Part shown: positions 1 through 12,004 of the stretch, piece by piece | Numbering within the stretch: position 1 is the first letter of the stretch | How the letters are laid out: every line of letters starts with the position of its first letter | Assembly (NCBI GenBank): GCA_036401015.1 | Contig: DASWWD010000003.1 | Location: 37,912 to 101,911 of the forward strand | DNA: 64,000 nucleotides | Reading direction: 5' to 3' | DNA from: Lacunisphaera sp. | GTDB lineage: Bacteria; Verrucomicrobiota; Verrucomicrobiia; Opitutales; Opitutaceae | The notes under the pieces: model-generated | Told to the model about the DNA's origin: nothing | Database searches by the model: none | The model's input: the letters and a program-made list of their open reading frames with translations, nothing else | Position numbers and translations under genes: made by a program

Positions 1-1103
1 GGGAGGGTCACGAGCGTGCCGTTGCTTGCCACGCGCTTGGTGGCCGGCTTCGGCCGCTGGCGGCGGTCGAGCACGGGCTGGCCGGCCACATCGAGCTCCA
101 CGGAGCGGACCTCCTTGTAGTAACGCTGGCCCGCGTCCACGAAATCGGTCGTCAGCACCCCGATACGGTAGTCGAGCTGCTTCTCGTCGAAGAGCTGGCG
201 GAAACGCCGGAGGTTGTCGGCGATGCGGCCCTGGTGCGCCGCCATGGACGGCGAGTTGTTGATGACAAACACGAGGTCGACCTCGCGGCTCTTGGTGCGG
301 TCCGCGGTGAGGTGCTTGAGGTCGCGGATCGGCTCCACGTTGACCACGATGACGTTCTCCACGCCGAGCGCCGGGTTGTTCTCGTCCGAGGTGTAGTAGC
401 CGAACCGGTCCTCGCCGATGAAGCCCGGATTGGGCGCATAGGTCAGCCGCCCGGTGCTCCGTTCGAGCCGGGCGGTGCCGTGCTGCGGCCGGGCCTTGTC
501 GTCCAGGGCGTAGATCACCTTCGCGTCGGTGATTTCGGCGCGGTCCGCCTCGGTCATGAAGTCCTGGTGATTCGGGACCTGATGGACGACATTGGTGTTC
601 GGCCGGGTCGTCAGCGTGACCGGCAGCACGTTCAGGGGGCGCTCGCGGTCCTTCTCGACGACGAATTTTTCGAGCTGCAGCGGCGCCAGGGGCGTCACGG
701 TGATGACCACGCGGTTCCGGAAGACCAGGCCCGAGTTCTCGTTGCGCACGGTGTAGGTGAACGAGTCCTCGCCGACGTAGTTCTCCCTCGGCTGATAGGC
801 GAAATAGCCCAGGCGCGAGGTCTTGTTGTTGTAGAAATTGTCCTCATCCGCCCCACCCGCCAGTCCCACGCGGCCGGACTGCGGCTCGGCGATAATCGTG
901 TAGACCAGGTCGCTGGACGACCCGGTGCCGGCGACCTCGGGGCCGACCACGAGCTGCCCGGACACGCCGGTGCCCGGGGCCTCGAGCTTCATGGGTGTCG
1001 CGGAGACGATCTCGGTGTCCTCGGCGAAGGCCGGCGCCGCGGCCAGCAGGGAGACGAGGCAAAACGCGCGCAGCCACGCAGAGAAATGGGTTTTGAGATT
1101 CAT
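1..1103 (-). CDS. Secreted protein with two Ig-like/cadherin-like repeats followed by a vWA domain; runs off the window edge
   Basis: Translated by hand (absent from the ORF track): ATG at 1103; signal-like MNLKTHFSAWLRAFCLVSLLAAAPAFA; repeats YFAYQPRENYVGEDSFTYTV and LTYAPNPGFIGEDRFGYYT; vWA start VDLVFVINNSPSM...DYRIGVLTTD; no stop before position 1. Confidence 0.8.
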   Translation of the reverse strand, partial: MNLKTHFSAWLRAFCLVSLLAAAPAFAEDTEIVSATPMKLEAPGTGVSGQLVVGPEVAGTGSSSDLVYTIIAEPQSGRVGLAGGADEDNFYNNKTSRLGYFAYQPRENYVGEDSFTYTVRNENSGLVFRNRVVITVTPLAPLQLEKFVVEKDRERPLNVLPVTLTTRPNTNVVHQVPNHQDFMTEADRAEITDAKVIYALDDKARPQHGTARLERSTGRLTYAPNPGFIGEDRFGYYTSDENNPALGVENVIVVNVEPIRDLKHLTADRTKSREVDLVFVINNSPSMAAHQGRIADNLRRFRQLFDEKQLDYRIGVLTTDFVDAGQRYYKEVRSVELDVAGQPVLDRRQRPKPATKRVASNGTLVTL

Positions 1104-1163
1104 GGTGTTGAAGCTAACGGCTTTAGTGTCTGCCAACATTCACAAGTTCCGCCAAGCTTAGTG

Positions 1164-1327
1164 TCTCACGCAGAGGCGCGGAGACGCGGAGAAATATTTT
1201 TTTAACCGCAAAGAACGCAGGGAGCTCAAAAAGGATAACCAAGGCAGTTTAACGCAAAGGCGCAAAGACGCCAAGAAGACGGGCTCTTGCCCCAATCCCT
1301 TTGCGCCTTCGCGTCTTTGCGTTGAAT
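1164..1327. repeat. Cluster of 8-nt periodic repeats, including a full hairpin at 1247-1327
   Basis: CGCAGAGG CGCGGAGA CGCGGAGA at about 1169; GTTTAAC-GCAAAGG CGCAAAGA CGCCAAGA ... CTTTGCGCC TTCGCGTC TTTGC-GTTGAAT. Confidence 0.75.
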
Positions 1328-1358
1328 TCAGACAGGCCTGCGGCAGGCCAACCCTGAC

Positions 1359-1904
1359 TCAATCCTGTTCCTTGGTCCGTGATGTCTTCGACTTTTTCCA
1401 CGGTCCGGGCGCGCCGGTCGAGGTATGCGGCGCGCGCGTCACGGTCCGGTGCGGCTTGGCCGCGGCTCCCGGGTCCTTGCTCCCGGCTCCCTGCTCTTGC
1501 AGCGCTTTGAGGAGCTCCGCCGGGAAATCAGCCATCTCGGCCACCTGGCGGATCTCGATCACGTCGCCGTCCTCCGCCGGGCAGCGCTTCCACCAGTCAA
1601 CGACCTGCTGCTTGGTCTTGGCCTCGACCAGCCAGTAGCCGCCAACCACTTCCTTGGAGTCCACCGCCGGGCCGTCCGTCACGGTCGGCTTGCCTCCGGC
1701 AAAGGCCAGACGCGCGCCCTTCGCCAGCGGCGCGAGGCCGTCCACGTCGCGCAACGCGCCGGCCTGCTTGAGCTCGTCGTTAAACCGGCCCATGGCGGCC
1801 ATCAGCCGGGCCGTCTTCTTCGGATCGGCGGAAAAGTCCGGGTTCTGCTGCTTGCCGTCTTTGGGCTGATAACCCGCGGGGATCATGAATACGAGGAAGC
1901 GCAT
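1359..1904 (-). CDS. YciI/DGPF-family protein with low-complexity C-terminal tail
   Basis: MRFLVFMIP start; TDGPAVDSKEVVGGYWL (DGPF-like motif); IEIRQVAE. Confidence 0.85.
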   Translation of the reverse strand: MRFLVFMIPAGYQPKDGKQQNPDFSADPKKTARLMAAMGRFNDELKQAGALRDVDGLAPLAKGARLAFAGGKPTVTDGPAVDSKEVVGGYWLVEAKTKQQVVDWWKRCPAEDGDVIEIRQVAEMADFPAELLKALQEQGAGSKDPGAAAKPHRTVTRAPHTSTGAPGPWKKSKTSRTKEQD

Positions 1905-1941
1905 ATAATTTCAGGGGGTTGGAGGAGACCTTCACCTATTC

Positions 1942-1967
1942 AACGATGGAAGACCACCAAACGGACA
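1942..1967 (-). promoter_or_regulatory. Putative ECF-sigma-type promoter upstream of the YciI gene
   Basis: Minus strand TGTCCGT-N15-CGTT, resembling the TGTC...CGTC motifs recalled upstream of YciI genes; inference only. Confidence 0.35.
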
Positions 1968-2082
1968 TCCCGTAACGTTGAAACTAACGTAAAGCCGCGG
2001 AGCCACAGGGCTCTTCGGCCCCACTCACCCGAGGAATTGACCACGGATGGAAGGCATCCCGGGAATTAACGCGCCCGGCCAT

Positions 2083-2170
2083 ATTGTTCATTTTTCAATG
2101 TTCATCGTTCGTTGTTCATTAGGTTCCGAGCCAATGAACATTGAACATTGAAAAATGAACGATGAACAAT
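2083..2170. repeat. Heptamer-periodic palindromic element with ATTGTTC...GAACAAT termini (copy 1)
   Basis: ATTGTTCATTTTTCAATGTTCATCGTTCGTTGTTCATT ... AATGAACATTGAACATTGAAAAATGAACGATGAACAAT; abuts the rhomboid stop codon. Confidence 0.8.
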
Positions 2171-2917
2171 TCAGGCGGGCCTCGCCGCCGCGGCCCGCTC
2201 GCGCCACAGCAGCATCAGCAGGAAACCGATGGCCGCGCCGCCCAGGTGGGCGAAGTGGGCCACGCCGGCGCCGAAGAGGGAAAACCCCGTGACGCCGGAC
2301 AGCAGGTCGAGGCCGAGGAGGACCGGGATGAAGTATTTCGCCGCCACCGGCACCGGCACGAACATCAGGGCGAGCTTGGCGTTGGGATGGAGCACGCCGA
2401 ACGCGACCAGCACGCCGTAGATCGCGCCCGAGGCGCCGACCATGGGGCGCGAGAAAATCCCGTAGAGCTCGACGAGAACGGCCCGCACCGCCGGGTCGGT
2501 CGGCAGCCGGCCCTTTCCGGCCAGGAGCAGCGCCTTGATTTCGGGGGCGGTCATGCCCGCCGCGACGAGGCGTTCGTGGAGCCCGGCAAACTCATACGCA
2601 TAGACGCCCAGCTGGACGAGGCCGGCGCCCACGCCGCAGAGGAAATAGAAGAGCAGGAAGCGCGGCGCCCCCCACTCCCGTTCCAGGATCGCCCCGAAGG
2701 AGACGAGGGCGAACATGTTGAAGAAGATGTGGCCGATATCCGCGTGCAGGAACATGTAGGACACCACCTGCCACGGCTGAAAAAGGGGGTTCTGCAGGAA
2801 CCAGACCGCGCCCTGCTCGAGGACCATATTGTGCCAAGCCGGCACGAAGGGACCCGGGGCAAACACCAGGATATTGATGATGAGCAGGCCTAGGGTCGCC
2901 CGGGGGATTCCGTTCAT
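2171..2917 (-). CDS. Rhomboid-family intramembrane serine protease
   Basis: SYMFLHAD..HIFFNM, GASGAIYG catalytic Ser motif, AHFAHLGGA; start taken at MNGIPR. Confidence 0.92.
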   Translation of the reverse strand: MNGIPRATLGLLIINILVFAPGPFVPAWHNMVLEQGAVWFLQNPLFQPWQVVSYMFLHADIGHIFFNMFALVSFGAILEREWGAPRFLLFYFLCGVGAGLVQLGVYAYEFAGLHERLVAAGMTAPEIKALLLAGKGRLPTDPAVRAVLVELYGIFSRPMVGASGAIYGVLVAFGVLHPNAKLALMFVPVPVAAKYFIPVLLGLDLLSGVTGFSLFGAGVAHFAHLGGAAIGFLLMLLWRERAAAARPA

Positions 2918-2966
2918 GTCCCCAACGTGGCACCCACCCCGCCCGGCGACGAACACAAATCGGGAG

Positions 2967-3099
2967 ATTGTTCAGCGTTCATTTTTCAATGTTCAGTGTT
3001 CATCGGCCTGAACCCTTGGACCCGAGCGTGGGAGGGGTTTTATACCCCGCCGTCCATATGCTCGAACCGCTGAGCATTGGATATTGAACGATGAACAAT
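2967..3099. repeat. ATTGTTC...GAACAAT palindromic element (copy 2) enclosing a GTGG-headed hairpin
   Basis: ATTGTTCAGCGTTCATTTTTCAATGTTCAGTGTTCAT ... ATTGAACGATGAACAAT; internal GTGGGA-GGGGT-TTTAT-ACCCC at 3028-3048. Confidence 0.75.
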
Positions 3100-3108
3100 G
3101 GCCCTTCG

Positions 3109-3134
3109 GTAGGGGCCGTTGCCCTCAACGGCCC
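3109..3134 (+). repeat. REP-like GTAG-headed hairpin
   Basis: GTAG + GGGCCGTTG-CCCT-CAACGGCCC (perfect 9-bp stem). Confidence 0.65.
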
Positions 3135-3147
3135 AGGCGGTTGGGGG

Positions 3148-3255
3148 CATCCGCGCCCCCTCGGGATCAAGCTGGTGCTCAAAGAGGATGAGCAGGTCGT
3201 CGGAGCGAACCTCGCGGAGAGAAACCCTAGACGTGATGACAGGTGTCGTGTCCAC
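3148..3255 (-). pseudogene. 5' fragment of a RimJ/RimL-type GNAT acetyltransferase
   Basis: VSLREVRSDDLLILFEHQLDPEGARM resembles a GNAT N-terminus; the frame then runs into REP/palindrome sequence and stops at 3040. Confidence 0.6.
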
Positions 3256-3341
3256 AGTTTGAGCCGGCAGGCGGCCCTGAAGGTAAATCCCAGAAAATCA
3301 GTTGCCCAAGCACCAAAACCTGACCCTTAGGCCTCTCTTTC

Positions 3342-4121
3342 TTATGCAAGCCACAATAGGGACATGACTACACCGTAGTTGTGAAACCTTATCGACTGTT
3401 CATACAAATCTCCTGAGCGCCTGGGCAGGTGGGGAAACCATGCGCCCCAATCAACTGGACGCATGTCGCCGCTAGAAATCCCGGTAACTGCAACGTCTGC
3501 CGCACAAGATCCCTTCTGTAGCTTCTGTGCCTTCTCTAGGTAAACATACTCCATGGTCTCTTCATTCCGTCGCCACCAATCAACTGTGCCAGCGCTCGAG
3601 AAGACGACAATGACCGGATGTCCAAATTTCGAAACATAGCGAAGCGCTGCCGCGGTCATGGAAACATTAAAGCGCTCCGCAAGGCTTTCTATTAAAGCCA
3701 AGCTGGGTTCGGCTGTTCTGTGCTGCGGCAACATCATTTTCATTGGGAGTAGTAAGGAAGAAGCGAAAGCATTGGCTTCGATTTCCTCTACACTTGAGTC
3801 ATAGTCATGCATGTTCTCCGCGGTGCACATGAACACTTGAGTCCTTCCCTTGTGCAGCACCCAATGACCAAGCTCGTGCGCCAGAGCAAAGCGGCGCCTC
3901 CCAACGTCATCCAATGCGGCATTAATTGTGATCCCACCCTTATCACCGACTCGGACAAGGTGTGCATCTGCGCCCGAAAGAGGCCTATAGGTGACTTCAA
4001 TCCCTAACGCATATGCGAGATCCTCTAAGATGATTTCAGATGGCCTGTGAATGGAATACTCATCTAAAAGGCTCTGTGCCTTGGTCTCGGCAAGGAACAG
4101 TCTCGGTTGCGCAGCGCTCAC
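3342..4121 (-). CDS. ImmA/IrrE (PprI/CapP-like) Zn metallo-endopeptidase
   Basis: RRRFALAHELGHWVLH (HExxH) plus EEIEANAFASSLLLP third-ligand motif; C-terminal extension as in IrrE-type proteins. Confidence 0.9.
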   Translation of the reverse strand: MSAAQPRLFLAETKAQSLLDEYSIHRPSEIILEDLAYALGIEVTYRPLSGADAHLVRVGDKGGITINAALDDVGRRRFALAHELGHWVLHKGRTQVFMCTAENMHDYDSSVEEIEANAFASSLLLPMKMMLPQHRTAEPSLALIESLAERFNVSMTAAALRYVSKFGHPVIVVFSSAGTVDWWRRNEETMEYVYLEKAQKLQKGSCAADVAVTGISSGDMRPVDWGAWFPHLPRRSGDLYEQSIRFHNYGVVMSLLWLA

Positions 4122-4552
4122 TTGTTATCGTTTCGCTTAGCCTGTCGTTTCAACTGCTCGTAAATCGCAATCAGATCTTCAGGAGGACTATTCTCCCAAT
4201 TCCGTCCGAACACTGCAGCTGCATCCGAAGGTTCAAGTGACTCCAGAAATTTTTTAATCTCTGCAACAATGGTTTGCGCCGAGCGCGCGGTAAATGCCTT
4301 TTGCTCAGGTTGTGCGGCCGCAAGTCTTTCTTTTCGCACAAACTCCAGAGGTTTTTCTGCTGGTTTGGGATAAAGATGTGACTGAAACGCCTTCCATGTC
4401 GCCTCAGGATCAATACCTGCCTCAACCAATGCTTGAGCCACCTCGGCTGATGAAAGCTTTTCTGTTCCGTCCTGCGTTCCATAAGCGAGATCGAATACCG
4501 ATTTCGCGAAATTACTGGGATTAGTAACCGGACGTTGATGCGGATTATTCAT
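4118..4552 (-). CDS. Small soluble helical hypothetical protein (candidate anti-sigma / protease substrate)
   Basis: 144 aa, no TM segment; ATGA-type 4-bp overlaps with both neighbours. Confidence 0.75.
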   Translation of the reverse strand: MNNPHQRPVTNPSNFAKSVFDLAYGTQDGTEKLSSAEVAQALVEAGIDPEATWKAFQSHLYPKPAEKPLEFVRKERLAAAQPEQKAFTARSAQTIVAEIKKFLESLEPSDAAAVFGRNWENSPPEDLIAIYEQLKRQAKRNDNK

Positions 4553-5193
4553 TGCTGTGCCCTCTCAAATTTTCGCAGAGCCGTAGCCAAGCGACGACGA
4601 GTGTTATAGACCTCTCCTTCAGAAATGCCGATCCGTTTTGCGATCGTTTTTGCGGGACGATCGATGCCTTCGTCACGAATCAGCATGAGCATGGCGACCA
4701 GATTTTTGTCCTTTTTACAGAATTCAATAAAGCGAGTCGCCCGCGCACTAGATTGTGCCAGCTGCTCGGGAGTGAATTTTTCAGTGCGCGGATCCCAATA
4801 GGGAGTTGATGTATCGAGCAGGTCTACTTCGCGACCAAACTTGTCTTCACTGACGTGATCGGAGCGATGAGTATTTTCATAACCAGTCGCAAGATGGTTT
4901 GCTAGGCTGCGCGCAATGCATCGAAAAGCGACGTCTACGGAAACGTCAGCGGCGAAAGTGCGGACACCAGACATGACCGACATATAAATACGGCCAAAAA
5001 GATCCACGGCCGCCTGCCCTCCAGGTGCGCAGCGATCAGCAGTAGAGACACACCAGTGCTTGGTGTGAATCATTCGTTCAATTTCCAGCAGCAGGTCAAA
5101 ATATCTCTGTTTGCCTTCAGGAGCCTTGAAAAAGGCTTCGACACGTTGGGGGCACGTTAAATGGATTTCTTCCATAGGTTGGCCCGAATGCAT
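4549..5193 (-). CDS. Divergent ECF-sigma-like protein with C-terminal HTH
   Basis: C-terminal AKTIAKRIGISEGEVYNTRRRLATALRK is a sigma region-4-like HTH; weak region-2-like segment FRCIARSLANH; start could be 5175. Confidence 0.7.
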   Translation of the reverse strand: MHSGQPMEEIHLTCPQRVEAFFKAPEGKQRYFDLLLEIERMIHTKHWCVSTADRCAPGGQAAVDLFGRIYMSVMSGVRTFAADVSVDVAFRCIARSLANHLATGYENTHRSDHVSEDKFGREVDLLDTSTPYWDPRTEKFTPEQLAQSSARATRFIEFCKKDKNLVAMLMLIRDEGIDRPAKTIAKRIGISEGEVYNTRRRLATALRKFERAQQ

Positions 5194-5264
5194 AAGATGG
5201 CATCGGGGAATGCGTTGGCAATGGGATTCTGGAGCACATGAGGGATGTGAGGCATATTCAGTAA

Positions 5265-5345
5265 TACCGGCGAAATACGCGAATTTACCGTCTTAGCTGA
5301 AATTTTCCGCGAATTCTGCAAAAACAGGAAGTTCGCCGGTAGAAT
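5265..5345. promoter_or_regulatory. Divergent control region: 10-bp inverted repeat, direct repeat, and possible sigma70-like promoter for the Ubl operon
   Basis: TACCGGCGAA (5265-5274) / TTCGCCGGTA (5332-5341); CGCGAATT at 5278 and 5308; CTGCAA-N18-TAGAAT (5316-5345). Confidence 0.45.
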
Positions 5346-5414
5346 ACATCAGGCCGAAGCCGGATTCACTGGCTTCAAGCGAAGTCGAATCACCAACAAC
5401 CAAACTACAAATCC

Positions 5415-5699
5415 ATGAGTAATCCCAATCCCCAGGAACCCCCTGGTCATAACAAGCCTGTCACCATCACCGTCAACGGCCGGTCGGTAACAGTCACCAA
5501 AGACCGTTACACCTACGAGGAGATCGTCGCCATCGCGTTTCCTTCGCCGGACTTCGGGAACAACACCTACAAGGTGACCTATTTTAAGGAGGCCGACAAG
5601 AAGGGCGAGCCGCCGCATGAGCGCACCCTGACGCCGGGTGAATCCGTAAACGTCAAGGACGGCATGGTTTTTACCGTTGTCCGTTCCATCAAGTCCTAA
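5415..5699 (+). CDS. Multiubiquitin-domain (beta-grasp) ubiquitin-like protein
   Basis: VTITVNGRSVTV...YTYEEIVAIAF...YKVTY...LTPGESVNVKDGMVFTVVRSIKS matches the Multi_ubiq pattern; ends in Ser, no Gly. Confidence 0.85.
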   Translation: MSNPNPQEPPGHNKPVTITVNGRSVTVTKDRYTYEEIVAIAFPSPDFGNNTYKVTYFKEADKKGEPPHERTLTPGESVNVKDGMVFTVVRSIKS

Positions 5700-5701
5700 A
5701 C

Positions 5702-6886
5702 TTGGCTACCTCCGCCGAAATTATCACGGCCAGCCCTGATCTCAAGGCCCTCTTCGATGATGGCTTTGAGGTCGGGGTAAAGGCTTCATATCTGCTGGTG
5801 AGAAATGTCCCTTACCTGGACGACCGGCGGGCCGTCTGTCGTGGCACCCTGATTATGGTATTGCCCATGGCCACCGACATCATCGTTGGCAAACCACCGG
5901 ACCATGTGACCTTCTTTGCCGGTAAGATGCCGCACTTCTCGAATGGCGACCCTATTAATGCCATTCTTCATGAGAAAAACAGCTTTAATCTTGCCGACGG
6001 CGTCGCAGCTTCCTTCCGCTTTTCAAGTCGGCCGGAGCCCGCTGATCCTGACTTCAATGCGAAAGTCCGTCGCTATGTGGATCTCCTTTCCGGCCCCGCT
6101 CGGGTGATTGACCCTCACGCCACTGCTCAGACCCGCCAAATCCTAGAGGTAACAGATGAAGACTCACCTTTCGTTTACGCCGACTCCCACTCTGCCAGAG
6201 CGCAGATTGTGCCCATTACAGCCAAACTCAAGGGCGGCATCATCGGCATCGTGGGATTGGGTGGCACTGGTTCTTATGTCTTGGACGCTGTCGCCAAGTG
6301 CCCCGTGCAAGAGATTCACGTATTCGACGACGATGAATTTTCCCTGAATAACGCCTATCGATCCCCGGGGGCCCCAACCCTTACCGAGCTGCGCGCTCGG
6401 ATGACAAAGGTCGCCTACCATACGGCGATTTACCTTCGCATGCATCGTCGCGTTCATCCTCATGAGACGCGTATCACCGCGGCCAATGTAGAGGAGCTCG
6501 CCAAGTTGAGCTTTGCATTCCTTTGCATGGATCCCGGGCCGGATAAAGCGGCCGTCGTCGCTTTTTTGGTCGATAGGAAAATTCCTTTCATCGACACGGG
6601 CCTGGGCGTAGAGGCCGGGAATGATCAGCTGCACGGCATCGTCAACACCATCACGGTAACCCCGGCACACCACACGCACATCGGCAACGTGCCGGTGAAA
6701 TCCGGCGGCGCCGACGAGCTCTATGCCAGCAACATCCAGATCGCCGAGCTCAACATGCTCAACGCGGTCATGGCCGTAATACGGTGGAAGAAGCACATGG
6801 GCTTCTATGCCAATGATCGCCATGAGCATGAGAGCAGCTACAGCATCGGCCCCAACATGCTCACCAATGAAGAAATTCACCGTTGA
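5702..6886 (+). CDS. E2-like (DUF6791-type) - ThiF/E1 adenylyltransferase fusion
   Basis: TTG start 2 bp after the Ubl stop; N-terminal LLVRNVPYL...DHVTFFAG...FSSRP; IVGLGGTGS nucleotide-binding loop, FDDDEF..NAYRSPG, FIDTGLG, NIQIAELN. Confidence 0.9.
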   Translation: MATSAEIITASPDLKALFDDGFEVGVKASYLLVRNVPYLDDRRAVCRGTLIMVLPMATDIIVGKPPDHVTFFAGKMPHFSNGDPINAILHEKNSFNLADGVAASFRFSSRPEPADPDFNAKVRRYVDLLSGPARVIDPHATAQTRQILEVTDEDSPFVYADSHSARAQIVPITAKLKGGIIGIVGLGGTGSYVLDAVAKCPVQEIHVFDDDEFSLNNAYRSPGAPTLTELRARMTKVAYHTAIYLRMHRRVHPHETRITAANVEELAKLSFAFLCMDPGPDKAAVVAFLVDRKIPFIDTGLGVEAGNDQLHGIVNTITVTPAHHTHIGNVPVKSGGADELYASNIQIAELNMLNAVMAVIRWKKHMGFYANDRHEHESSYSIGPNMLTNEEIHR

Positions 6887-7253
6887 ATTCGTTGAGCACA
6901 TGCCGCAGCCGCTTGAGACAGGCGTGCTGTATGTTTCGATCCGCTTTCGTCTGGTAGCCCACAACTGCCCGTGTGGTTGCGGCAATGAAGTGGTGACGAA
7001 TCTCTCGCCCACCGGATGGCGGCTGACTTTTAACGGCCACACAATTTCTCTGCACCCTTCGATCGGCAACTGGGATTTCCCCTGCCGCTCTCACTACTGG
7101 ATTCGGCAAAATACTGTGCAATGGGCCGAATCATGGACCGACCGGAAAATCGCACAGGCAAAGCGCGAGCAGGACCACGCCAATTCGGACCTCGGTCTTA
7201 AGGAGCCAGTCCGCCGTCGCCCATTTTGGCAGCGTTTGTTGGGTAGCGAATAA
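6867..7253 (+). CDS. DUF6527-family protein (putative Ubl-processing protease)
   Basis: ATG at 6867 overlapping the E1 3' end; GVLYVS, HNCPCGCG, ISLHPSIGNW, PCRSHYWI motifs. Confidence 0.85.
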   Translation: MKKFTVEFVEHMPQPLETGVLYVSIRFRLVAHNCPCGCGNEVVTNLSPTGWRLTFNGHTISLHPSIGNWDFPCRSHYWIRQNTVQWAESWTDRKIAQAKREQDHANSDLGLKEPVRRRPFWQRLLGSE

Positions 7254-7264
7254 CCTCGCCTCTC

Positions 7265-7777
7265 GTGATACCCAATCCCACAGAGGTCGAAGAAACCGAA
7301 GTCACAGGCCAATTAATCGATCGGATTGGTCAGGGATACCGCTATGTGCTGACTATGGACCGCCGCGCGCGCTACTGGCACGTATTCGCCGGCTCTGCAC
7401 GGATTGCTGAGGCGCTGTGCACCCTGCTTGATGACGATGTCTTTAATATCGGCGACCTACATGTCCGTCACAACATCGCTGTCCCACAGACCTTCCTCCA
7501 GAGCTTTTTTTGCCAACCCGTCCGGCAAATCGATTATCGGCGCCGCGGACTAGGTGCTGCGTTGCTCGATCAGGTCCTAGTTCACGCACGGGAGTGTGGC
7601 TGCCGCAAGGTGACAGGCATAATCTCCATCTTCGACCTAGAAGAATTTTCGGAACTCATCGCCTGGTATGAACGCTTTGGATTCCAATATATTCCTGAAA
7701 CGCCAGGCACTCGGGTCGCTGGTAATCTCACATTAGATATAAACTCGTTGCCAGACGTTTCCAAAATCGTCGCATGA
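7265..7777 (+). CDS. GNAT-family acetyltransferase
   Basis: GTG start 11 bp after DUF6527; acetyl-CoA motif A YRRRGLGAALL; WYERFGF. Confidence 0.75.
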   Translation: MIPNPTEVEETEVTGQLIDRIGQGYRYVLTMDRRARYWHVFAGSARIAEALCTLLDDDVFNIGDLHVRHNIAVPQTFLQSFFCQPVRQIDYRRRGLGAALLDQVLVHARECGCRKVTGIISIFDLEEFSELIAWYERFGFQYIPETPGTRVAGNLTLDINSLPDVSKIVA

Positions 7778-7941
7778 AGACATATCACTGCTATCGCTGC
7801 AGCCTACCGATTGTGATGCGCGCTTCGTATCGGCAGAAGGCAACCAAGCGCGTGGTCCATCGCATGGGTAAAAAGGCGTTCCCAATCCACGTTGGAGGCC
7901 ATTGCGGCCAGACTTATTGGCCTTCGATCCTCAAAAACTGA
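7774..7941 (+). CDS. 55-aa basic mini-protein with CxxC and HxxxHC (possible Zn-binding)
   Basis: Hand translation MKTYHCYRCSLPIVMRASYRQKATKRVVHRMGKKAFPIHVGGHCGQTYWPSILKN; ATGA overlap with GNAT stop; below the ORF-track cutoff. Confidence 0.5.
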   Translation: MKTYHCYRCSLPIVMRASYRQKATKRVVHRMGKKAFPIHVGGHCGQTYWPSILKN

Positions 7942-8090
7942 AGAAAGCCGGAACGGGTCAGATTTTAATTCTTTCGATTGCCCCGATTGGCCTCGGTGCG
8001 GGCGACACGCACTTCCCAGGCGGCATGCTCCGGCCAATAGGCGATGGCTACGCGGTGAAGAACCGGATTCCTGATCAAGGCAGTGGACCT

Positions 8091-8148
8091 ATTGTTCGTT
8101 GGTTCGGATAAGTGGACGATGACCATTGAAAAATCAGTGATGAACAAT
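8091..8148. repeat. ATTGTTC...GAACAAT palindromic element (copy 3, short)
   Basis: ATTGTTCGTTGGTTC ... CATTGAAAAATCAGTGATGAACAAT. Confidence 0.7.
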
Positions 8149-8173
8149 CGCGGCGCTGACCAATGTCCGCGCC

Positions 8174-8713
8174 CTACCCTCGCGTCTTCGCTTGAACCTG
8201 AATGCGATCCAGTGCCGTCTTGATCGCTTGCAGATAATTCGGGTGCCAGAGTTCGTGTTCGGCGTCTGGGACTACGGTGTAGGTGTGCTGGCGGTAGAAA
8301 TCGCGTAGGGCCGTGGCGCGGCGGTGCATCTGGGCGTCTTCCTCGCCGCCGACCAGGATGTCGGCGGGGGTGGCGGCGTTGCCAGCGCGGTAGGAGATCA
8401 TCCAGCGCTCGGGCTCGTCGTCATCCTCAAGGAAGAACGGCGAGACCGAGCCGAGGATCAGGTGCCGGGCCCGCAACGCACCGAGGTGCGAGTAAAGCGC
8501 ACCGAGCGAGAACCCCATCACGACCTTGCCCTCTGTCTGGGCGTCGACCTGGGGAAAAATCTCGGTCGATCCGAATGGCGGCACCCGGCCGCCGAAGTCC
8601 AGGCGGACGAACTCCGTCTCCCACCCCGCGGTATGCACGAAATCGACAAACGGCTTGAAGCGACGCTCAGCGCCAGGCATCGGCGGGACAATCGTCAGGA
8701 GAGGCATGGGCAT
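8174..8713 (-). CDS. Alpha/beta-hydrolase-fold protein
   Basis: MGFSLGA (GxSxG), ILVGGEED, AEHEL. Confidence 0.7.
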   Translation of the reverse strand: MPMPLLTIVPPMPGAERRFKPFVDFVHTAGWETEFVRLDFGGRVPPFGSTEIFPQVDAQTEGKVVMGFSLGALYSHLGALRARHLILGSVSPFFLEDDDEPERWMISYRAGNAATPADILVGGEEDAQMHRRATALRDFYRQHTYTVVPDAEHELWHPNYLQAIKTALDRIQVQAKTRG

Positions 8714-8718
8714 GGAGA

Positions 8719-8829
8719 AGCTGTAAGCGATCAGCGGTCAGCTGTCAGCTCTCCAGACACACAGTTAAGCTGAGAGCGACTTATTGCTCCTCTTGCTGAC
8801 AGCTGAACGCTGAATGCTGACGGCTTTAA
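8719..8829. repeat. Heptamer-periodic palindrome (AGCnnTC arm / GCTGAnn arm)
   Basis: AGCTGTA AGCGATC AGCGGTC AGCTGTC AGCTCTC ... GCTGACA GCTGAAC GCTGAAT GCTGACG. Confidence 0.85.
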
Positions 8830-10310
8830 ACCAGCTTGAGCTGTTTTCGGGCGGCGAGGGCCAGGTCGTTGAATTTCACGGCCAGCTCGGGCTTCCGGTA
8901 ATCGGTGCCATACGTGGGCACGATCTCGGCCATGCGGGGGCTGGTCATCAAATGCGGGAAGCTCTTGTTGATCACTTCGAGCACGATGTTGACGCAGACC
9001 GAGGCCCCGGGGCTCGCACCGAGGAGGGCGGACATGCTCTTGTCGGCGCTGGTGAGGACCTCCGTGCCGAAATGCACGATGCCGGCCTCGCCGTCGGTCT
9101 TCTTGATCGCCTGCACCCGGATGCCGCCGTCGACCAGCTTCCAGTCCTCGGCCTTCGCGTTGGGATAGAAAATGTGCATCACCCGCATGCGGTCGGCCAT
9201 GCTTTGCGTGCCCTGCTGCAGCAGATACCTCACCAGCGGGAAGTTGGTGGCGGCGATCTTGAGCAGCGTCATCACGTTGTGCGGCTTCACCGTCGCGGGG
9301 AGATCGGTCCAGCTGCCGGTGCGGTGCAGGAAACGGGTCGTCCACGCGGCAAAGGGCCCGAAGAGGAGTGTCTTCTTGCCGTCGAGGATGCGGGTGTCGA
9401 GGTGCGGCACGGCCATGGTGGGCGCCTCGGGCAGGTTCTGCCCGTAGACCTTGGCTTGGTGGCGGGCGACGATCTCGGGCTTGTCGCACACGAGCCAGTG
9501 GCCGCCGATGGGGAAACCGCCGAGGCCCTTCGCCTCGGGCAGGCCGGCCATCTGCAGGAGCGGCAGGCTGCCGCCGCCGGCGCCGACGAAGACGAACTTC
9601 GCGTTCACCGTGCGCTCCACGCCGGTCTTGAGTTCGCGGGCGGTGACGGACCAGCCCGCCCCGCTCTTCTGCAAGCCGACGACCTTGTTGCCGGCGGCCA
9701 CGGCGCAGCCTTCCTGGTTGGCGAGCCAGGTGAGGAGCTTGCGACAGAGGGCGCCGAAATTGATGTCGGTGCCGCCGTCCATCTTGGTCGCGGCGATGAG
9801 CTGCTTGGGGTCGCGGCCCTCGGTGAGCAGCGGGGCCCAGGCGCCGACCTTGGCGTGGTCGGTGGTGAACTCCATCGAGCTGAAGAAGTGGTGCGCCTTC
9901 ATGCCGTCGTAGCGCGACTTGAGGAACTTCACCTGGTCCTCGCCGTCGACGAAGCTGATGTGCTGGACCGGATTGATGAACTCCTTCGGGTTGTCGATCA
10001 TGCCGGTCGCGACGGCGTGGGCCCAGAACTGGAGCGTCTGCTCGAACTCCTGGAAGATATCGATGACCTTCTGGACCTTCACCGGGCTGCCGTCGGCGGG
10101 CTTCGGCGTGTAGCTGACCTCGCAGATGCCCGCGTGGCCGGTGCCGGCGTTGTTCCAGCCGTTGGAGCTCTCAAAGGCCAGCTCCTCGGCCGCCTCATAC
10201 ACCTGGATGCGCAGCTTCGGGTCGAGGCGCTTCAGGATGGCACCCAGGTTGGCGGACATGACGCCGCTGCCGATGAGGACAACGTCGGGATTTTCGATGT
10301 GGGTGGTCAT
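8826..10310 (-). CDS. mqo: Malate:quinone oxidoreductase
   Basis: DVVLIGSGVMSA FAD motif, ESSNGWNNAGTGHA, APTMAVPHLDTR, LLGASPGAS. Confidence 0.95.
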   Translation of the reverse strand: MTTHIENPDVVLIGSGVMSANLGAILKRLDPKLRIQVYEAAEELAFESSNGWNNAGTGHAGICEVSYTPKPADGSPVKVQKVIDIFQEFEQTLQFWAHAVATGMIDNPKEFINPVQHISFVDGEDQVKFLKSRYDGMKAHHFFSSMEFTTDHAKVGAWAPLLTEGRDPKQLIAATKMDGGTDINFGALCRKLLTWLANQEGCAVAAGNKVVGLQKSGAGWSVTARELKTGVERTVNAKFVFVGAGGGSLPLLQMAGLPEAKGLGGFPIGGHWLVCDKPEIVARHQAKVYGQNLPEAPTMAVPHLDTRILDGKKTLLFGPFAAWTTRFLHRTGSWTDLPATVKPHNVMTLLKIAATNFPLVRYLLQQGTQSMADRMRVMHIFYPNAKAEDWKLVDGGIRVQAIKKTDGEAGIVHFGTEVLTSADKSMSALLGASPGASVCVNIVLEVINKSFPHLMTSPRMAEIVPTYGTDYRKPELAVKFNDLALAARKQLKLV

Positions 10311-10326
10311 GGGAGGAGGAGCAGGG

Positions 10327-10438
10327 AGCTGTAAGCTGTAAGCTTTAGGCTTTAAGCCCTGGACTAAGGCAGTGGGTGGCTGGAATTGGTTGGGTGGTTC
10401 GGAGCTTAAAGCCTATCGCTTATAGCTTAGTGCTCTGG
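10327..10438. repeat. Heptamer-periodic palindrome (AGCTnTA family)
   Basis: AGCTGTA AGCTGTA AGCTTTA GGCTTTA ... GCTTAAA GCCTATC GCTTATA GCTTAGT. Confidence 0.85.
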
Positions 10439-10518
10439 CTGACGAATGGTAGCGAATGGCGGCGGGGGCGGCTGCGCATTATGTGGTTTTTAGTGGCTGT
10501 AATTTCCCGGGCAGGAGC

Positions 10519-10607
10519 AGCGGTAAGCAGTAAGCCATAAGGTGGTGGGCGACTGGAATTGGTTCGGTGGTTCGAAGCTTACTGCCTATCGCTTATAGCC
10601 TAAAGCT
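10519..10607. repeat. Heptamer-periodic palindrome, near-duplicate of the 10327-10438 element
   Basis: AGCGGTA AGCAGTA AGCCATA ... CTGGAATTGGTTCGGTGGTTCGAA GCTTACT GCCTATC GCTTATA GCCTAAA. Confidence 0.8.
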
Positions 10608-10611
10608 GCCG

Positions 10612-11871
10612 TCAGGTGCGTTTCGACTGCACCTGACGCTCGTAGCGGGCGACGTCCTTGAGCCACTGGGCGCCCGGGGGGACGCCGTCGCGTTCGCAGA
10701 GTTCGTCCCACACGGCGCCCCAGGGCAGCGCGCGGGCGTTTTCCATCAGCGCGAGGCGCTCGTGACCCTTGCCGGCATTCTCGGCGGCCTTCATCCCGGC
10801 AGACGGGTCGAGCAGGCCGCAGAGGATGGCCTGGCGGGTGGCGCGGGCGCCGATGACGTAGGCGGCGACGCGGTTGATCGAGGCGTCGAAGAAATCCAGG
10901 GCCACGAACATGCGGTCCCACGCGTCGCCGCGGGCGATCTCGAGGAAGAGGTTGCGCACGGCGTCGTCGAAGATGACGACGTGGTCGCTGTCCCAGCGGA
11001 TCGGGCGGCTGGTGTGGAGCAGCAGCTTCTTGTGGAACGCGAGGTGGGCGGAGACCTTGTCGGCGACCGATTCCGTCGGGTGGTAGTGGCCGAGGTCGAG
11101 GCAGAGCACGAGGTCGCGGCTGAGGGCGTAGTTGGAATAGAACTCCTGCGAGCCGACGACGTATTCCTCGGAGCCGATGCCGAAGAGCTTTCCCTCGACG
11201 GCGTCGACGCAGAGCTTCCGGTTCACGGACTTGTCGGCGAAGATGGCGTCGTAGGACGCGGCGAGGCGTTCGCGCGGGGCCCAGCGGTCGGCCGGGGCGT
11301 CCTTGGCGCCGTCCGGCACCCAGTGGTTGTTCACGCAGGGCGTGCCGAGGGTCTTGGCGAAGCTCTCCGCGATGTGGCGGCTGGCCTTGGCGTGGCGGAT
11401 CCAGAACTTGCGGACGGCCGGGTCGGCGTCGGAGAGGGTGAAGCCCGAGTTGGCCATCTCGTGGGCGAAATAGGTCGGGTTGAAATCGAGGCCGACGCGG
11501 CGGGACTTGGCCCAGCCCAGCCAGCGCGCGAAGTGCTCGGGCTGCAGCTCGTCGCGGTCGACGACCTTGCTGCCGGTCTCGGCGTAGAAGGCGTGGAGGT
11601 TGAGGCGCTGCTTGCCGGGGAGGAGCTTCAGCGCGAGATCGAGGTCGGCGCGCATCTCGTCGCCGTTGCGGGCGCGGCCCGGGTAACCGCCGGTGGCGAG
11701 GGTGCCGCTGCCGGTGAGGCCGGCCTTCGGCGTCTCGAGGCCGCGGACGTCGTCGGCCTGCCAGCAGTGGAGGGAGATCGGAATGCGCAGCGCGGCGCGG
11801 ATGGCGGCTTCGGTATCAACGCCATGGGCGGCGTAGGCGGCACGGGCGAGTTTGTAGGCGGGGGAGCTCAT
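10612..11871 (-). CDS. rhaA: L-rhamnose isomerase
   Basis: ISLHCWQADDV, YPGRARN, LDFNPTYF, KLFGIG.E.YVVGS, RPIRWDSDHVV, LDFFDASINR. Confidence 0.95.
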   Translation of the reverse strand: MSSPAYKLARAAYAAHGVDTEAAIRAALRIPISLHCWQADDVRGLETPKAGLTGSGTLATGGYPGRARNGDEMRADLDLALKLLPGKQRLNLHAFYAETGSKVVDRDELQPEHFARWLGWAKSRRVGLDFNPTYFAHEMANSGFTLSDADPAVRKFWIRHAKASRHIAESFAKTLGTPCVNNHWVPDGAKDAPADRWAPRERLAASYDAIFADKSVNRKLCVDAVEGKLFGIGSEEYVVGSQEFYSNYALSRDLVLCLDLGHYHPTESVADKVSAHLAFHKKLLLHTSRPIRWDSDHVVIFDDAVRNLFLEIARGDAWDRMFVALDFFDASINRVAAYVIGARATRQAILCGLLDPSAGMKAAENAGKGHERLALMENARALPWGAVWDELCERDGVPPGAQWLKDVARYERQVQSKRT

Positions 11872-11886
11872 GGAATCAGGAGGGGT

Positions 11887-12004
11887 GAATTAAGAATTAA
11901 GAACTAACCAAGAATTTTCACCACAGAGGCACCAAGTCACAAAGGAGAGAAACATTCATGAACCATGAGTTGTCTTTCTCTGTGTCTCTGTGCCTTCGTG
12001 GTTA
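11887..12004. repeat. GAATTAA heptamers plus an 8-nt periodic hairpin (CACAGAGG/CACAGAGA) whose end contains the rhaB stop codon
   Basis: GAATTAA GAATTAA GAACTAA; TTTCAC CACAGAGG CACCAAGT CACAAAGG ... TCTCTGTG TCTCTGTG CCTTCGTG GTTAA. Confidence 0.75.

What the first reader, a model, noticed from the sequence alone, without database searches (positions are those of the whole stretch)
3342..5193. Sigma-like / small protein / IrrE triad with no XRE repressor
Seen: three translationally coupled genes. The middle protein has no TM helix and no obvious HTH. ImmA/IrrE proteases normally act on an adjacent or fused HTH repressor, so the likely substrate here is the 144-aa protein (or the sigma-like protein). 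That would be a cytoplasmic proteolytic sigma-activation module, unlike membrane anti-sigma RIP cascades.
Basis: partly seen in the sequence, partly recalled or inferred. Interest (0 to 1): 0.7.

Follow-up and report, generated by a model that had tools for sequence, protein, structure and literature searches.

The report
Sigma, anti-sigma-like, CapP defence switch
Three overlapping genes encode a very divergent sigma factor, a small acidic partner with no DNA-binding fold, and the DNA-damage-sensing protease CapP; they sit back to back with a ubiquitin-like (Bub) defence operon and probably switch it on by cutting the partner and freeing the sigma factor, a variant noted once in the literature but never studied.

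Summary
On the minus strand, 5193-4549 (214 aa, probable start 5175), 4552-4118 (144 aa) and 4121-3342 (259 aa) overlap by 4 nt at both junctions.

- **Protease:** a full-length CapP (PADLOC capP, E 7e-60) with HExxH and the cysteine switch.
- **First gene:** a divergent sigma-70/ECF-type protein. It falls below curated cut-offs, but the profile-profile match to this genome's own ECF sigmas has 93% probability.
- **Middle gene:** soluble, helical, no HTH and no known fold. It belongs to a family of at least 131 mostly acidic proteins of about 145 aa.
- **Conservation:** the triad recurs next to Bub, Bil and CBASS operons in Verrucomicrobiota and Alphaproteobacteria. It carries twin outward bipartite promoter motifs that change with the sigma subfamily.
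- **Shared tail:** the small proteins share only a C-terminal motif, two hydrophobic residues then Arg, followed by an amphipathic helix. It aligns with the CapP cleavage site of CapH.

Best reading (about 0.6): ssDNA-activated CapP cuts an anti-sigma-like partner and releases a private sigma factor that drives the Bub operon and its own operon. Lau et al. 2022 mention the arrangement in one sentence. The logic parallels CalpL/CalpT/CalpS. This is a new variant of a known kind, and no biochemistry was done.

The parts
4549..5193 (-). Divergent sigma-70/ECF-type sigma factor gene (214-aa longest ORF; probable start Met7 at 5175, giving 208 aa)
   Evidence: TIGR02937 E 2.5e-5 over model positions 17-163 of 165, below the cut-off. 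hhalign against 14 ECF sigmas of the same genome: probability 93%, E 3e-7, residues 49-205. About 48 of the top 50 Foldseek PDB hits are sigma factors, with weak E-values. Family member L052 passes the Pfam Sigma70_r2 gathering score. PGAP names the Bradyrhizobium homologue 'sigma-70 family RNA polymerase sigma factor'.
4118..4552 (-). 144-aa soluble helical protein: candidate anti-sigma factor and CapP substrate
   Evidence: No family, HTH or TM segment. All-helical AF2 model with pLDDT 67 and no PDB fold match. Family of 131 representatives, almost all 135-160 aa. Family mean net charge -5.7. It always lies between a sigma-like gene and capP.
4199..4213 (-). Codons for V114-F115-G116-R117-N118, the predicted CapP cleavage motif (two hydrophobic residues then Arg), just before terminal helix 124-142
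   Evidence: R117 is conserved in 114 of 128 family members, preceded by Y/F and F/A/Y. hhalign places it on the CapH F82|R83 site: score 15.2 against a column-shuffle null of 7.9 +/- 1.9, reached by 2 of 300 shuffles. The motif lies 20-40 residues from the C-terminus in 4 of 6 unrelated small-protein families (P 5.5e-4). In the AF2 model it lies in a non-helical stretch, 112-123.
3342..4121 (-). capP: ImmA/IrrE M78 metallopeptidase with a C-terminal sensor half
   Evidence: PADLOC capP E 6.7e-60 over the full length, Pfam Peptidase_M78 E 2e-21. The alignment with Thauera sp. K11 CapP and five triad CapPs keeps R75, R77, H82, E83, H86, C99, W182 and W228 invariant.
3825..3878 (-). CapP active site H82-E83-x-x-H86 and cysteine switch C99
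   Evidence: C99 lies 13 residues after the second His, the same spacing as H101/C114 of E. coli CapP described in preprint 10.64898/2026.05.16.725639.
5264..5289 (-). Predicted promoter of the sigma/144-aa/capP operon: GGTAAA-N14-CGGTAT
   Evidence: The same bipartite motif (GGnRAA, 14-16 nt spacer, CGGTAT) lies upstream of the sigma gene in L001 and L003-L007. No sigma-70 consensus promoter occurs in 3000-5700.
5317..5342 (+). Predicted promoter of the Bub operon: TGCAAA-N14-CGGTAG, back to back with the first
   Evidence: Found by a relaxed scan. Among the 15 genome-wide hits of that scan, the two window sites are the only ones lying close together and facing outward. The equivalent outward-facing second copy faces the divergent operon in L003-L007. 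Its -35 element has one mismatch (T for G).
5415..5699 (+). bubA, ubiquitin-like protein (94 aa)
   Evidence: Pfam Multi_ubiq E 1e-16.
5702..6886 (+). bubBD, E2-like/E1 fusion (394 aa)
   Evidence: Pfam DUF6791 E 2e-43 plus ThiF E 1e-12. NCBIfam NF004805 E 6e-132. The architecture is as defined for Type II Bub in PMC11601596.
6807..7253 (+). bubE, DUF6527 serine protease (longest ORF; the real start is probably further downstream)
   Evidence: Pfam DUF6527 E 3e-26. PMC11601596 describes DUF6527 proteins as BubE.
7265..7777 (+). GNAT acetyltransferase gene 11 nt after bubE, probably in the same transcription unit
   Evidence: Pfam Acetyltransf_7 and Acetyltransf_1. It shares the low-GC composition of the island.

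Best explanation
The triad is a sigma-factor version of the CapH/CapP regulator of immune operons. Shown by sequence: the last gene is a CapP peptidase with an intact active site and cysteine switch. The first gene is a highly divergent two-domain (sigma2 + sigma4) sigma-70/ECF-type protein. The middle gene is a soluble helical protein with no HTH; it is near-neutral here, but its family is mostly acidic. Its only element shared with other triads' small proteins and with CapH is a C-terminal tail: two hydrophobic residues, Arg, then an amphipathic helix. The cassette sits between two outward-facing copies of one bipartite -35/-10-like motif, one in front of its own operon and one in front of the Type II Bub operon. 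Inferred: in resting cells the 144-aa protein holds the sigma factor inactive, acting as an anti-sigma. DNA damage or phage replication produces single-stranded DNA, which binds CapP and displaces Cys99 from the zinc, as established for canonical CapP. Active CapP cuts the 144-aa protein just before R117, using the terminal helix as a docking element. The sigma factor is then released, binds core RNA polymerase, and transcribes bubA-bubBD-bubE (probably with the GNAT gene) and, by positive feedback, its own operon. The motif has no regulon-like excess elsewhere in the genome, so the sigma factor appears private to this island.
For: - **CapP identity and catalytic/switch residues:**, with the mechanism taken from papers read.
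- **Sigma homology:**. In a whole-genome scan, this ORF is the only sub-threshold TIGR02937 hit that spans the whole model.
- **Middle protein is not an HTH:**. An XRE control (L057) scores HTH_3 at E 1e-11 in the same search, while nine triad small proteins score nothing.
- **Family is acidic:** mean net charge -5.7.
- **Triad is conserved** next to Type III CBASS (L003, L004), Bil (L010), Type II CBASS (Bradyrhizobium plasmid) and another CBASS (Cereibacter plasmid).
- **Phylum survey:** in 401 genomes of the phylum, all 17 full-length CapP loci have a sigma-like gene plus a small gene upstream, none with an XRE CapH (the nine small proteins scanned in Pfam lack any HTH).
- **Twin bipartite motifs:** 12 sites in 7 loci. 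In the 4 loci not used to derive the pattern, 7 sites were found where about 0.1 is expected. Analogous pairs with different sequence and the same 14-nt spacer occur in the Cereibacter and Bradyrhizobium cassettes.
- **C-terminal tail resembles the CapH cleavage site:**
- **One natural sigma::small-protein fusion:** P0059.
Against: - There is no direct evidence that the 144-aa protein binds the sigma-like protein or is cut by CapP.
- It resembles no known anti-sigma domain in sequence or predicted fold.
- Both AF2 models are of low confidence (pLDDT 67 and 57), and no complex could be predicted.
- The sigma-like protein fails every curated threshold by itself (24 bits against 42.9).
- A cut about 27 residues from the C-terminus does not obviously release a sigma factor. 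An extra step, such as loss of dimerisation or degradation of the remnant, must be assumed.
- The Bub-side -35 element is imperfect (TGCAAA).
- Full-length profile comparison of the family with CapH is not significant (probability 1%).
- The tail similarity rests on a short motif (P about 0.01 and 5e-4, partly post hoc).
- The fusion is a single short metagenomic contig and could be a frameshift artefact.
- A weak SAP/LEM-like helix-extended-helix motif at residues 33-60 leaves DNA binding possible.
Confidence: 0.6

Rival explanations
1. The 144-aa protein is a non-canonical DNA-binding repressor, a CapH that replaced its XRE domain with another DNA-binding element such as the SAP/LEM-like motif. 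It sits on the intergenic region. CapP removes it as in canonical systems, and the sigma-like protein is an additional, constitutively competent activator needed to read the promoters.
For: Lau et al. 2022 list the middle gene of such loci as capH. A weak helix-extended-helix similarity exists: the profile hit to the SAP domain 1zrj has E 0.026, the hit to CW_7 repeats has E 4e-5, and two members hit LEM. The C-terminal tail resembles the CapH dimerisation/cleavage tail. Residues 63-100 are basic.
Against: The family is acidic overall (81% of members negative), and the SAP-like segment itself averages -2.5. No HTH was found in any of 128 members. I saw no operator-like palindrome conserved across loci in the intergenic regions, only the bipartite promoter-like motifs. 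The N-terminal halves of small proteins in different triads are unrelated to each other while the sigma subfamily also changes, which fits a protein partner better than DNA.
Confidence: 0.17
2. The 214-aa protein is not a true sigma factor but a sigma-derived, two-domain DNA-binding activator or repressor that works without replacing the housekeeping sigma. The small protein and CapP still gate it.
For: It is below every curated sigma threshold. The AF2 model is poor in the sigma2-like half. A conserved Cys/His-containing N-terminal extension (residues 1-48) is absent from ordinary ECF sigmas.
Against: Homology covers both sigma2 and sigma4. The structural neighbours are almost exclusively sigma factors. 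The conserved DNA motif is bipartite with a fixed 14-16 nt spacer at promoter-like distance from the start codons. No sigma-70 consensus promoter is found in the region.
Confidence: 0.13
3. CapP's substrate is the sigma-like protein itself (pro-sigma processing or destruction), and the 144-aa protein is an adaptor or chaperone.
For: Pro-sigma processing exists elsewhere, for example Bacillus sigma-E and sigma-K (established knowledge).
Against: The CapH-like tail (two hydrophobic residues, Arg, then a helix) is on the small protein in all triads inspected. I did not search the sigma-like proteins for an equivalent motif, so none is known there.
Confidence: 0.05

Closest known systems
CapH + CapP (Lau et al. 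2022, bioRxiv 10.1101/2022.04.27.489752; Calloji et al. 2026, 10.64898/2026.05.16.725639)
   Same: The peptidase family is the same, with HExxH, the cysteine switch and the C-terminal sensor half. The position is the same: upstream of, and divergent from, an immune operon (31% of Bub operons carry CapH+CapP, PMC11601596). The substrate gene lies immediately upstream of capP and overlaps it. The substrate's C-terminal tail resembles the CapH F82|R83 cleavage helix plus docking helix.
   Different: There is no XRE HTH repressor. The middle protein belongs to a mostly acidic family without an HTH. A third gene encodes a sigma-like protein. The DNA signals are twin bipartite promoter-like motifs, not an operator palindrome. 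The output logic would be activation by release of a sigma factor instead of de-repression. Lau et al. record 'Sigma-70 present' for 24 CBASS loci but did not analyse them.
CalpL / CalpT / CalpS of type III CRISPR-Cas (bioRxiv 10.1101/2024.05.08.593097; Rouillon et al. 2023, from my own knowledge)
   Same: A soluble, signal-activated protease cuts a soluble anti-sigma factor and releases an ECF-like sigma factor as part of an antiviral response.
   Different: There, the protease is a SAVED-Lon activated by cA4, not an M78 peptidase activated by ssDNA. No sequence relationship between the anti-sigmas was detected, but CalpT was not compared directly. The present cassette is a portable regulator attached to Bub, Bil and CBASS operons.
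DdvS / DdvA of Myxococcus xanthus (PMC11506125)
   Same: An ECF sigma/anti-sigma pair controls transcription of a CBASS/CRISPR defence island.
   Different: DdvA is a transmembrane anti-sigma, and no operon-encoded protease is involved. Here all parts are cytoplasmic.
IrrE(PprI)/DdrO of Deinococcus and ImmA/ImmR of ICEBs1 and prophages
   Same: An M78 peptidase inactivates a transcription regulator encoded next to it in response to DNA damage. IrrE binds ssDNA (PMC10904395).
   Different: Those substrates are XRE HTH repressors, and no sigma factor is involved.
RseA/sigma-E type regulated intramembrane proteolysis
   Same: Proteolysis of an anti-sigma factor activates an ECF sigma factor.
   Different: That cascade is membrane-bound, uses site-1 and site-2 proteases and senses an envelope signal. 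Here there is a single soluble protease with an intracellular nucleic-acid signal.

Membership tests
CapP (ImmA/IrrE M78 peptidase regulators of immune operons) | Full-length match to the CapP profile, including the C-terminal sensor half | tested here: met
   PADLOC PDLC04141 E 6.7e-60, residues 12-258 on profile positions 6-241 of 242. Alignment with the crystallised Thauera sp. K11 CapP.
CapP (ImmA/IrrE M78 peptidase regulators of immune operons) | HExxH zinc site plus downstream Glu, and the cysteine-switch loop | tested here: met
   H82, E83, H86 and C99 are invariant in the alignment, and E113 lies at the expected spacing. The C99 spacing (His + 13) equals E. coli H101/C114.
CapP (ImmA/IrrE M78 peptidase regulators of immune operons) | Activation by single-stranded DNA | not testable with these tools
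   The equivalents of the ssDNA-contact residues R90 and W196 (here R75 and W182) are invariant. This is suggestive only.
CapH (substrate/repressor of CapP) | N-terminal XRE-type helix-turn-helix DNA-binding domain | tested here: not met
   No HTH family matches the 144-aa protein or any of 128 relatives. Thauera-type CapH homologues all carry HTH_3/HTH_19/HTH_31. The XRE control scores E 1e-11.
CapH (substrate/repressor of CapP) | C-terminal cleavage helix (F82|R83) followed by a hydrophobic docking/dimerisation helix | tested here: inconclusive
   The motif V-[YF]-[FAY]-R-[KN]-[FLW]-E followed by an amphipathic helix aligns to AFF|RGYQ of CapH. The score exceeds 298 of 300 column shuffles. 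R117 is conserved in 89% of members. The motif recurs in 4 of 6 other small-protein families (P 5.5e-4). The full-length comparison is not significant.
Sigma-70 family, group 4 (ECF-type) sigma factors | Sigma2 and sigma4 domains recognised by curated models above threshold | tested here: not met
   TIGR02937 gives 24 bits against a cut-off of 42.9, and there is no Pfam Sigma70_r2/r4 hit for the window protein.
Sigma-70 family, group 4 (ECF-type) sigma factors | Remote homology and fold of sigma2 + sigma4 | tested here: met
   hhalign probability 93%, E 3e-7 against 14 ECF sigmas of the same genome over residues 49-205. The top Foldseek hits are sigma factors. Family members L052, L050 and L053 pass the Sigma70_r2 gathering score.
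Sigma-70 family, group 4 (ECF-type) sigma factors | Cognate bipartite -35/-10 promoter, typically also in front of its own gene | tested here: met
   GGnRAA-N14-16-CGGTAT lies upstream of the sigma operon and of the divergent operon in 7 loci. Subfamily-specific equivalents occur in two alphaproteobacterial plasmids. This is comparative evidence only; no transcription start data are available.
Sigma-70 family, group 4 (ECF-type) sigma factors | Binding to core RNA polymerase | not testable with these tools
Known anti-sigma factors (ASD class I/ZAS, RskA, NepR, FlgM and similar) | Recognisable anti-sigma domain or zinc motif | tested here: not met
   No Pfam, NCBIfam or PDB-profile hit and no Foldseek hit with E below 1.
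Known anti-sigma factors (ASD class I/ZAS, RskA, NepR, FlgM and similar) | Encoded directly downstream of, and co-transcribed with, its sigma factor | tested here: met
   A 4-nt overlap with the sigma gene here, and the same order in all about 25 triads inspected.
Type II Bub operon (regulated target) | BubA Ubl + BubBD E2-E1 fusion + BubE (DUF6527), without a JAB peptidase | tested here: met
   Multi_ubiq, DUF6791+ThiF (NF004805, E 6e-132) and DUF6527. Definition taken from PMC11601596.

The most novel reading that the evidence does not exclude
The small, mostly acidic proteins of these triads are a new, fast-evolving class of soluble anti-sigma factors. Each is built from a variable sigma-binding N-terminal part and a conserved CapH-derived tail that serves as the CapP cleavage site. 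Together with CapP and a private, highly divergent ECF-like sigma factor, they would form a portable cassette with its own twin promoters. The cassette would turn single-stranded DNA (DNA damage or phage replication) directly into sigma-factor release. It would be the main, and in Verrucomicrobiota apparently the only, form of CapP regulation of Bub, Bil and CBASS immune operons.
Probability: 0.5. Interest if true: 0.7.

Novelty: new variant of a known kind. Interest (0 to 1): 0.6.

Why it matters

If the reading is right, CapP has a second output mode. Instead of removing a repressor, it would release a dedicated sigma factor, giving an OFF-by-default, positively autoregulated switch.

That would have several consequences:
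- It would add an ssDNA/M78 branch to the small set of soluble protease/anti-sigma/sigma pathways, of which CalpLTS is the known example.
- It would define a new anti-sigma family with at least 131 clusters at 50% identity.
- It would correct the annotation of the 'capH' genes in the 'Sigma-70 present' CBASS loci of Lau et al.
- It would supply orthogonal sigma/promoter/protease parts for synthetic circuits.

It also bears on Bub operons, for which no phage protection has been found in E. coli (PMC11601596). If a Bub operon needs its own sigma factor, transplanting it without the cassette may leave it silent.

Tried and rejected
- **Fold assignment of the 144-aa protein.** The AF2 model from a 7-sequence alignment has pLDDT 67 and no Foldseek PDB hit with E below 1. 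PDB profile searches with 7 and 128 sequences gave only weak SAP/CW_7/LEM-like hits to residues 33-60. I considered this as evidence for DNA binding and set it aside, because that segment and the family as a whole are acidic.
- **Full-length profile comparison of the family with CapH.** Not significant. Only the C-terminal block gives a signal.
- **Regulon search.** The promoter pattern occurs 21 times genome-wide, which I estimated to be about the chance number. Among the relaxed-scan hits, no other two lie close together facing outward. I therefore make no claim of further targets.
- **Sigma-70 consensus promoters and terminators around the triad.** No promoters, and terminator-like hairpins at chance level.
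- **Search for the palindrome quoted by another first-reader note (ATTGTTC...GAACAAT, exact).** No exact match. The imperfect heptamer-periodic elements are real, however.
- **tRNA genes as an island border.** None in 1-12000.
- **Structure jobs.** No refolding and no complex prediction were possible.
- **Supplement of the Bub paper.** Not held, so I could not count sigma-type regulators among the 168 'CapH+CapP' Bub operons.
- **Literature searches** for ECF + DUF955, anti-sigma + IrrE, and sigma + anti-sigma + CBASS + peptidase. No study of this cassette was found.
Full report
**Observation**

The window holds three minus-strand ORFs at 5193-4549 (214 aa), 4552-4118 (144 aa) and 4121-3342 (259 aa, GTG start). 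Each overlaps the next by 4 nt. They lie in a low-GC stretch (50-56% against 63-68% around it) from about 3100 to 8100. Close homologues of the first protein begin at its Met7, so the likely start is 5175. All three genes recur in the same order and with the same overlaps elsewhere, so they are real genes and a real operon.

**The protease**

Pfam gives Peptidase_M78 (E 2e-21). PADLOC gives capP at E 6.7e-60 across the whole protein. I aligned it with the crystallised Thauera sp. K11 CapP and five other triad peptidases. R75, R77, H82, E83, H86, C99, W182 and W228 are invariant.
- C99 sits 13 residues after the second zinc histidine, exactly as the 'cysteine switch' C114 does after H101 in E. 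coli CapP.
- R75 and W182 correspond to the ssDNA-contact residues R90 and W196 of that protein (preprint 10.64898/2026.05.16.725639).

So this is a CapP, the ssDNA-activated peptidase that normally cleaves the XRE repressor CapH to de-repress an adjacent immune operon (Lau et al. 2022; PMC13373217).

**The neighbour**

Divergently transcribed from the triad are four genes:
- a Multi_ubiq protein (5415-5699);
- a DUF6791+ThiF protein (5702-6886; NF004805, E 6e-132);
- a DUF6527 protein (6807-7253);
- a GNAT gene.

The first three are BubA, BubBD and BubE of a Type II Bub operon as defined in PMC11601596. That paper reports CapH+CapP next to 31% of Bub operons.

**The sigma-like protein**

On its own it only reaches a sub-threshold TIGR02937 hit (E 2.5e-5, 24 bits, cut-off 42.9), but the hit spans model positions 17-163 of 165.
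- In a scan of the whole genome it is the only sub-threshold hit that spans the model. The others match just a sigma4-like HTH.
- A profile of 11 family members aligned to 14 bona fide ECF sigmas of the same genome gives hhalign probability 93% and E 3e-7 over residues 49-205. That span runs from region 2.1/2.2 through sigma4.
- The AF2 model is poor (pLDDT 57) but has four helices, a linker, then four more helices. About 48 of its 50 best PDB neighbours are sigma factors, with weak E-values from 3e-3 upward.
- Remote members of the same family reach Pfam's own threshold for Sigma70_r2 (L052, 26.4 bits). Sigma genes of other triads score E 5e-11 and 9e-9.
- PGAP calls the Bradyrhizobium homologue a sigma-70 family sigma factor.

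I conclude it is a very divergent group-4-type sigma factor. Binding to RNA polymerase is not shown.

**The 144-aa protein**

It has no Pfam, NCBIfam or PADLOC family and no TM segment. The AF2 model is all-helical (pLDDT 67) with no structural neighbour.
- An exhaustive HMM search found 131 representatives, nearly all 135-160 aa.
- None of 128 members has an HTH family hit. An XRE protein from a conventional ImmA locus scored HTH_3 at E 1e-11 in the same kind of search.
- The family is acidic: mean net charge -5.7, with 81% of members negative. The window's own copy is near-neutral (net charge -1).
- A weak SAP/LEM/CW_7-like helix-extended-helix motif lies at residues 33-60. That segment is itself acidic on average, so I do not read it as a DNA-binding domain.

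**Conservation of the cassette**

The same triad faces several kinds of immune operon:
- Type III CBASS operons in L003 and L004;
- a Bil operon in L010, through a member only 22% identical;
- a Type II CBASS on a Bradyrhizobium plasmid, and another CBASS on the Cereibacter sphaeroides 2.4.1 plasmid.

The middle proteins of the two plasmid cassettes belong to the 144-aa family (E 4e-20 and 2e-13). The Bradyrhizobium case matches the 'Type II short, phospholipase, Sigma-70 present' rows of Lau et al.'s Table S1. The 'capH' listed there is therefore most likely this non-HTH family.

In 401 genomes of the window's phylum, 20 have CapP-like hits. All 17 full-length CapP loci carry a 190-250-aa sigma-like gene and a 116-158-aa gene upstream, none with an XRE CapH; the nine small proteins I scanned in Pfam lack any HTH. 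Only the partial hits, which are ordinary ImmA-type proteins, are linked to XRE domains.

**Promoter motifs**

The 221-nt intergenic region has no sigma-70 consensus promoter. It has GGTAAA-N14-CGGTAT reading towards the triad (5289-5264) and TGCAAA-N14-CGGTAG reading towards bubA (5317-5342).
- The pattern GGnRAA-N14-16-CGGTAT occurs upstream of the sigma gene in L001 and L003-L007. It also occurs on the opposite strand, facing the divergent operon, in L003-L007.
- In the four loci not used to define the pattern, 7 sites were found where about 0.1 is expected.
- The Cereibacter cassette has GTCCGAG-N14-CCGCATA in both directions, and the Bradyrhizobium cassette has TTCTGAAA-N14-GGCATAG in both directions.

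The motif sequence thus changes with the sigma subfamily while the geometry stays the same. Genome-wide, the window's motif occurs at chance frequency, and among the relaxed-scan hits no other two lie close together facing outward. This is what a private sigma factor with an autoregulated operon and one target operon would look like. It is not what a dimeric repressor's operator looks like.

**Link between the small protein and CapP**

The small proteins of different triads have unrelated N-terminal halves. Nearly all carry, 20-40 residues from the C-terminus, two hydrophobic or small residues followed by Arg and then an amphipathic helix.
- In the 144-aa family the consensus is V-[YF]-[FAY]-R-[KN]-[FLW]-E...EDL..LL..L, with R117 present in 114 of 128 members.
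- CapH is cut by CapP between F82 and R83 in a helix that precedes the docking helix. The Thauera CapH reads AFF|RGYQKLEPEAKEQLRKILETF.
- hhalign of the two C-terminal blocks puts R117 on R83, with a score reached by only 2 of 300 column shuffles.
- A motif defined from these two families alone is found in the right place in 4 of 6 further small-protein families (P 5.5e-4 by shuffling).
- In the AF2 model, residues 112-123 are non-helical and are followed by helix 124-142.

This is suggestive, not conclusive, evidence that the small protein is the CapP substrate and that it has kept only CapH's cleavable tail.

**Mechanism proposed**

The following steps are inferred, not shown.
1. The 144-aa protein sequesters the sigma factor.
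2. ssDNA from DNA damage or phage replication activates CapP.
3. CapP cuts before R117.
4. The sigma factor is released and transcribes the Bub operon and its own operon.

One sigma::small-protein fusion (P0059) fits a physical partnership, but it is a single short contig. How a C-terminal cut would free the sigma factor is open; loss of dimerisation or degradation of the remnant are possibilities.

**Rivals**
- The small protein is an unconventional DNA-binding CapH (0.17).
- The 214-aa protein is a sigma-derived regulator that does not bind core polymerase (0.13).
- The sigma-like protein itself is the substrate (0.05).

**Comparison and novelty**

The cassette is a variant of CapH+CapP. The peptidase passes the CapP membership tests. 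The middle protein fails the defining HTH test for CapH. The first protein meets the sigma tests only by remote homology.

Functionally the nearest precedent is CalpL/CalpT/CalpS. DdvS/DdvA shows ECF control of a defence island through a membrane anti-sigma. The only literature mention of this arrangement that I found is one sentence and a table column in Lau et al. 2022. Later Corbett-lab papers treat CapP only with CapH.

Earlier agents of this scan reached the same reading for similar cassettes in other genomes. I treated those reports as leads. I re-tested the promoter-pair and 'CapH tail' claims here. They are not independent evidence.

**Limits**

There is no biochemistry.

Noticed in passing
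window 2083-2177, 2963-3106, 8113-8155: Imperfect heptamer-periodic (GTTCAnn-type) palindromic elements. One pair of arms (2966-3016 / 3064-3106) and a copy at 8113-8155 bracket the low-GC island that holds the triad, the Bub operon and the GNAT gene. They may mark the insertion borders, or they may simply be the genome's usual intergenic repeats.
   Followed up: partly
window 5415-5699: The BubA ubiquitin-like protein ends ...VVRSIKS with no C-terminal glycine, whereas the Bub paper describes a conserved C-terminal Gly in Citrobacter BubA. Whether it is processed or conjugated through another residue is open.
   Followed up: no
window 7265-7941: A GNAT acetyltransferase gene starts 11 nt after bubE. 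A 55-aa Cys/His-rich ORF (7774-7941) overlaps the end of the GNAT gene and has no Pfam match. Both share the island's low GC and may be extra cargo of this Bub operon.
   Followed up: partly
window 5050-5175 (residues 1-48 of the 208-aa form of the sigma-like protein): The verrucomicrobial subfamily of the sigma-like protein has an N-terminal extension and invariant W41-C42 ('HWC') and C153 ('FC'). These are absent from remote members (L010, P0059). It could be a metal or redox site.
   Followed up: no
L009 1452-2471 (protein P0059): A 339-aa ORF fuses a sigma-like N-terminal part to a full copy of the 144-aa family (residues 220-328). The second part begins with its own Met at the junction, so it is either a real fusion or a one-base frameshift in a short metagenomic contig.
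   Followed up: partly
L041-L061 (401-genome survey of the window's phylum): Every full-length CapP found in this phylum (17 loci) is of the sigma + small protein type, and none has an XRE CapH. The small proteins fall into at least six unrelated N-terminal families.
   Followed up: partly
L001 7260-9271 and L002: In these contigs the triad has only the promoter motif facing its own operon and no divergent immune operon; an S9 peptidase gene lies upstream in the same direction. The cassette can therefore occur without an obvious target, or its target lies downstream.
   Followed up: no
window 6807-6886: The longest ORF of bubE overlaps bubBD by 80 nt. An internal Met (MKKFTVEF...) is a more likely start.
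   Followed up: no
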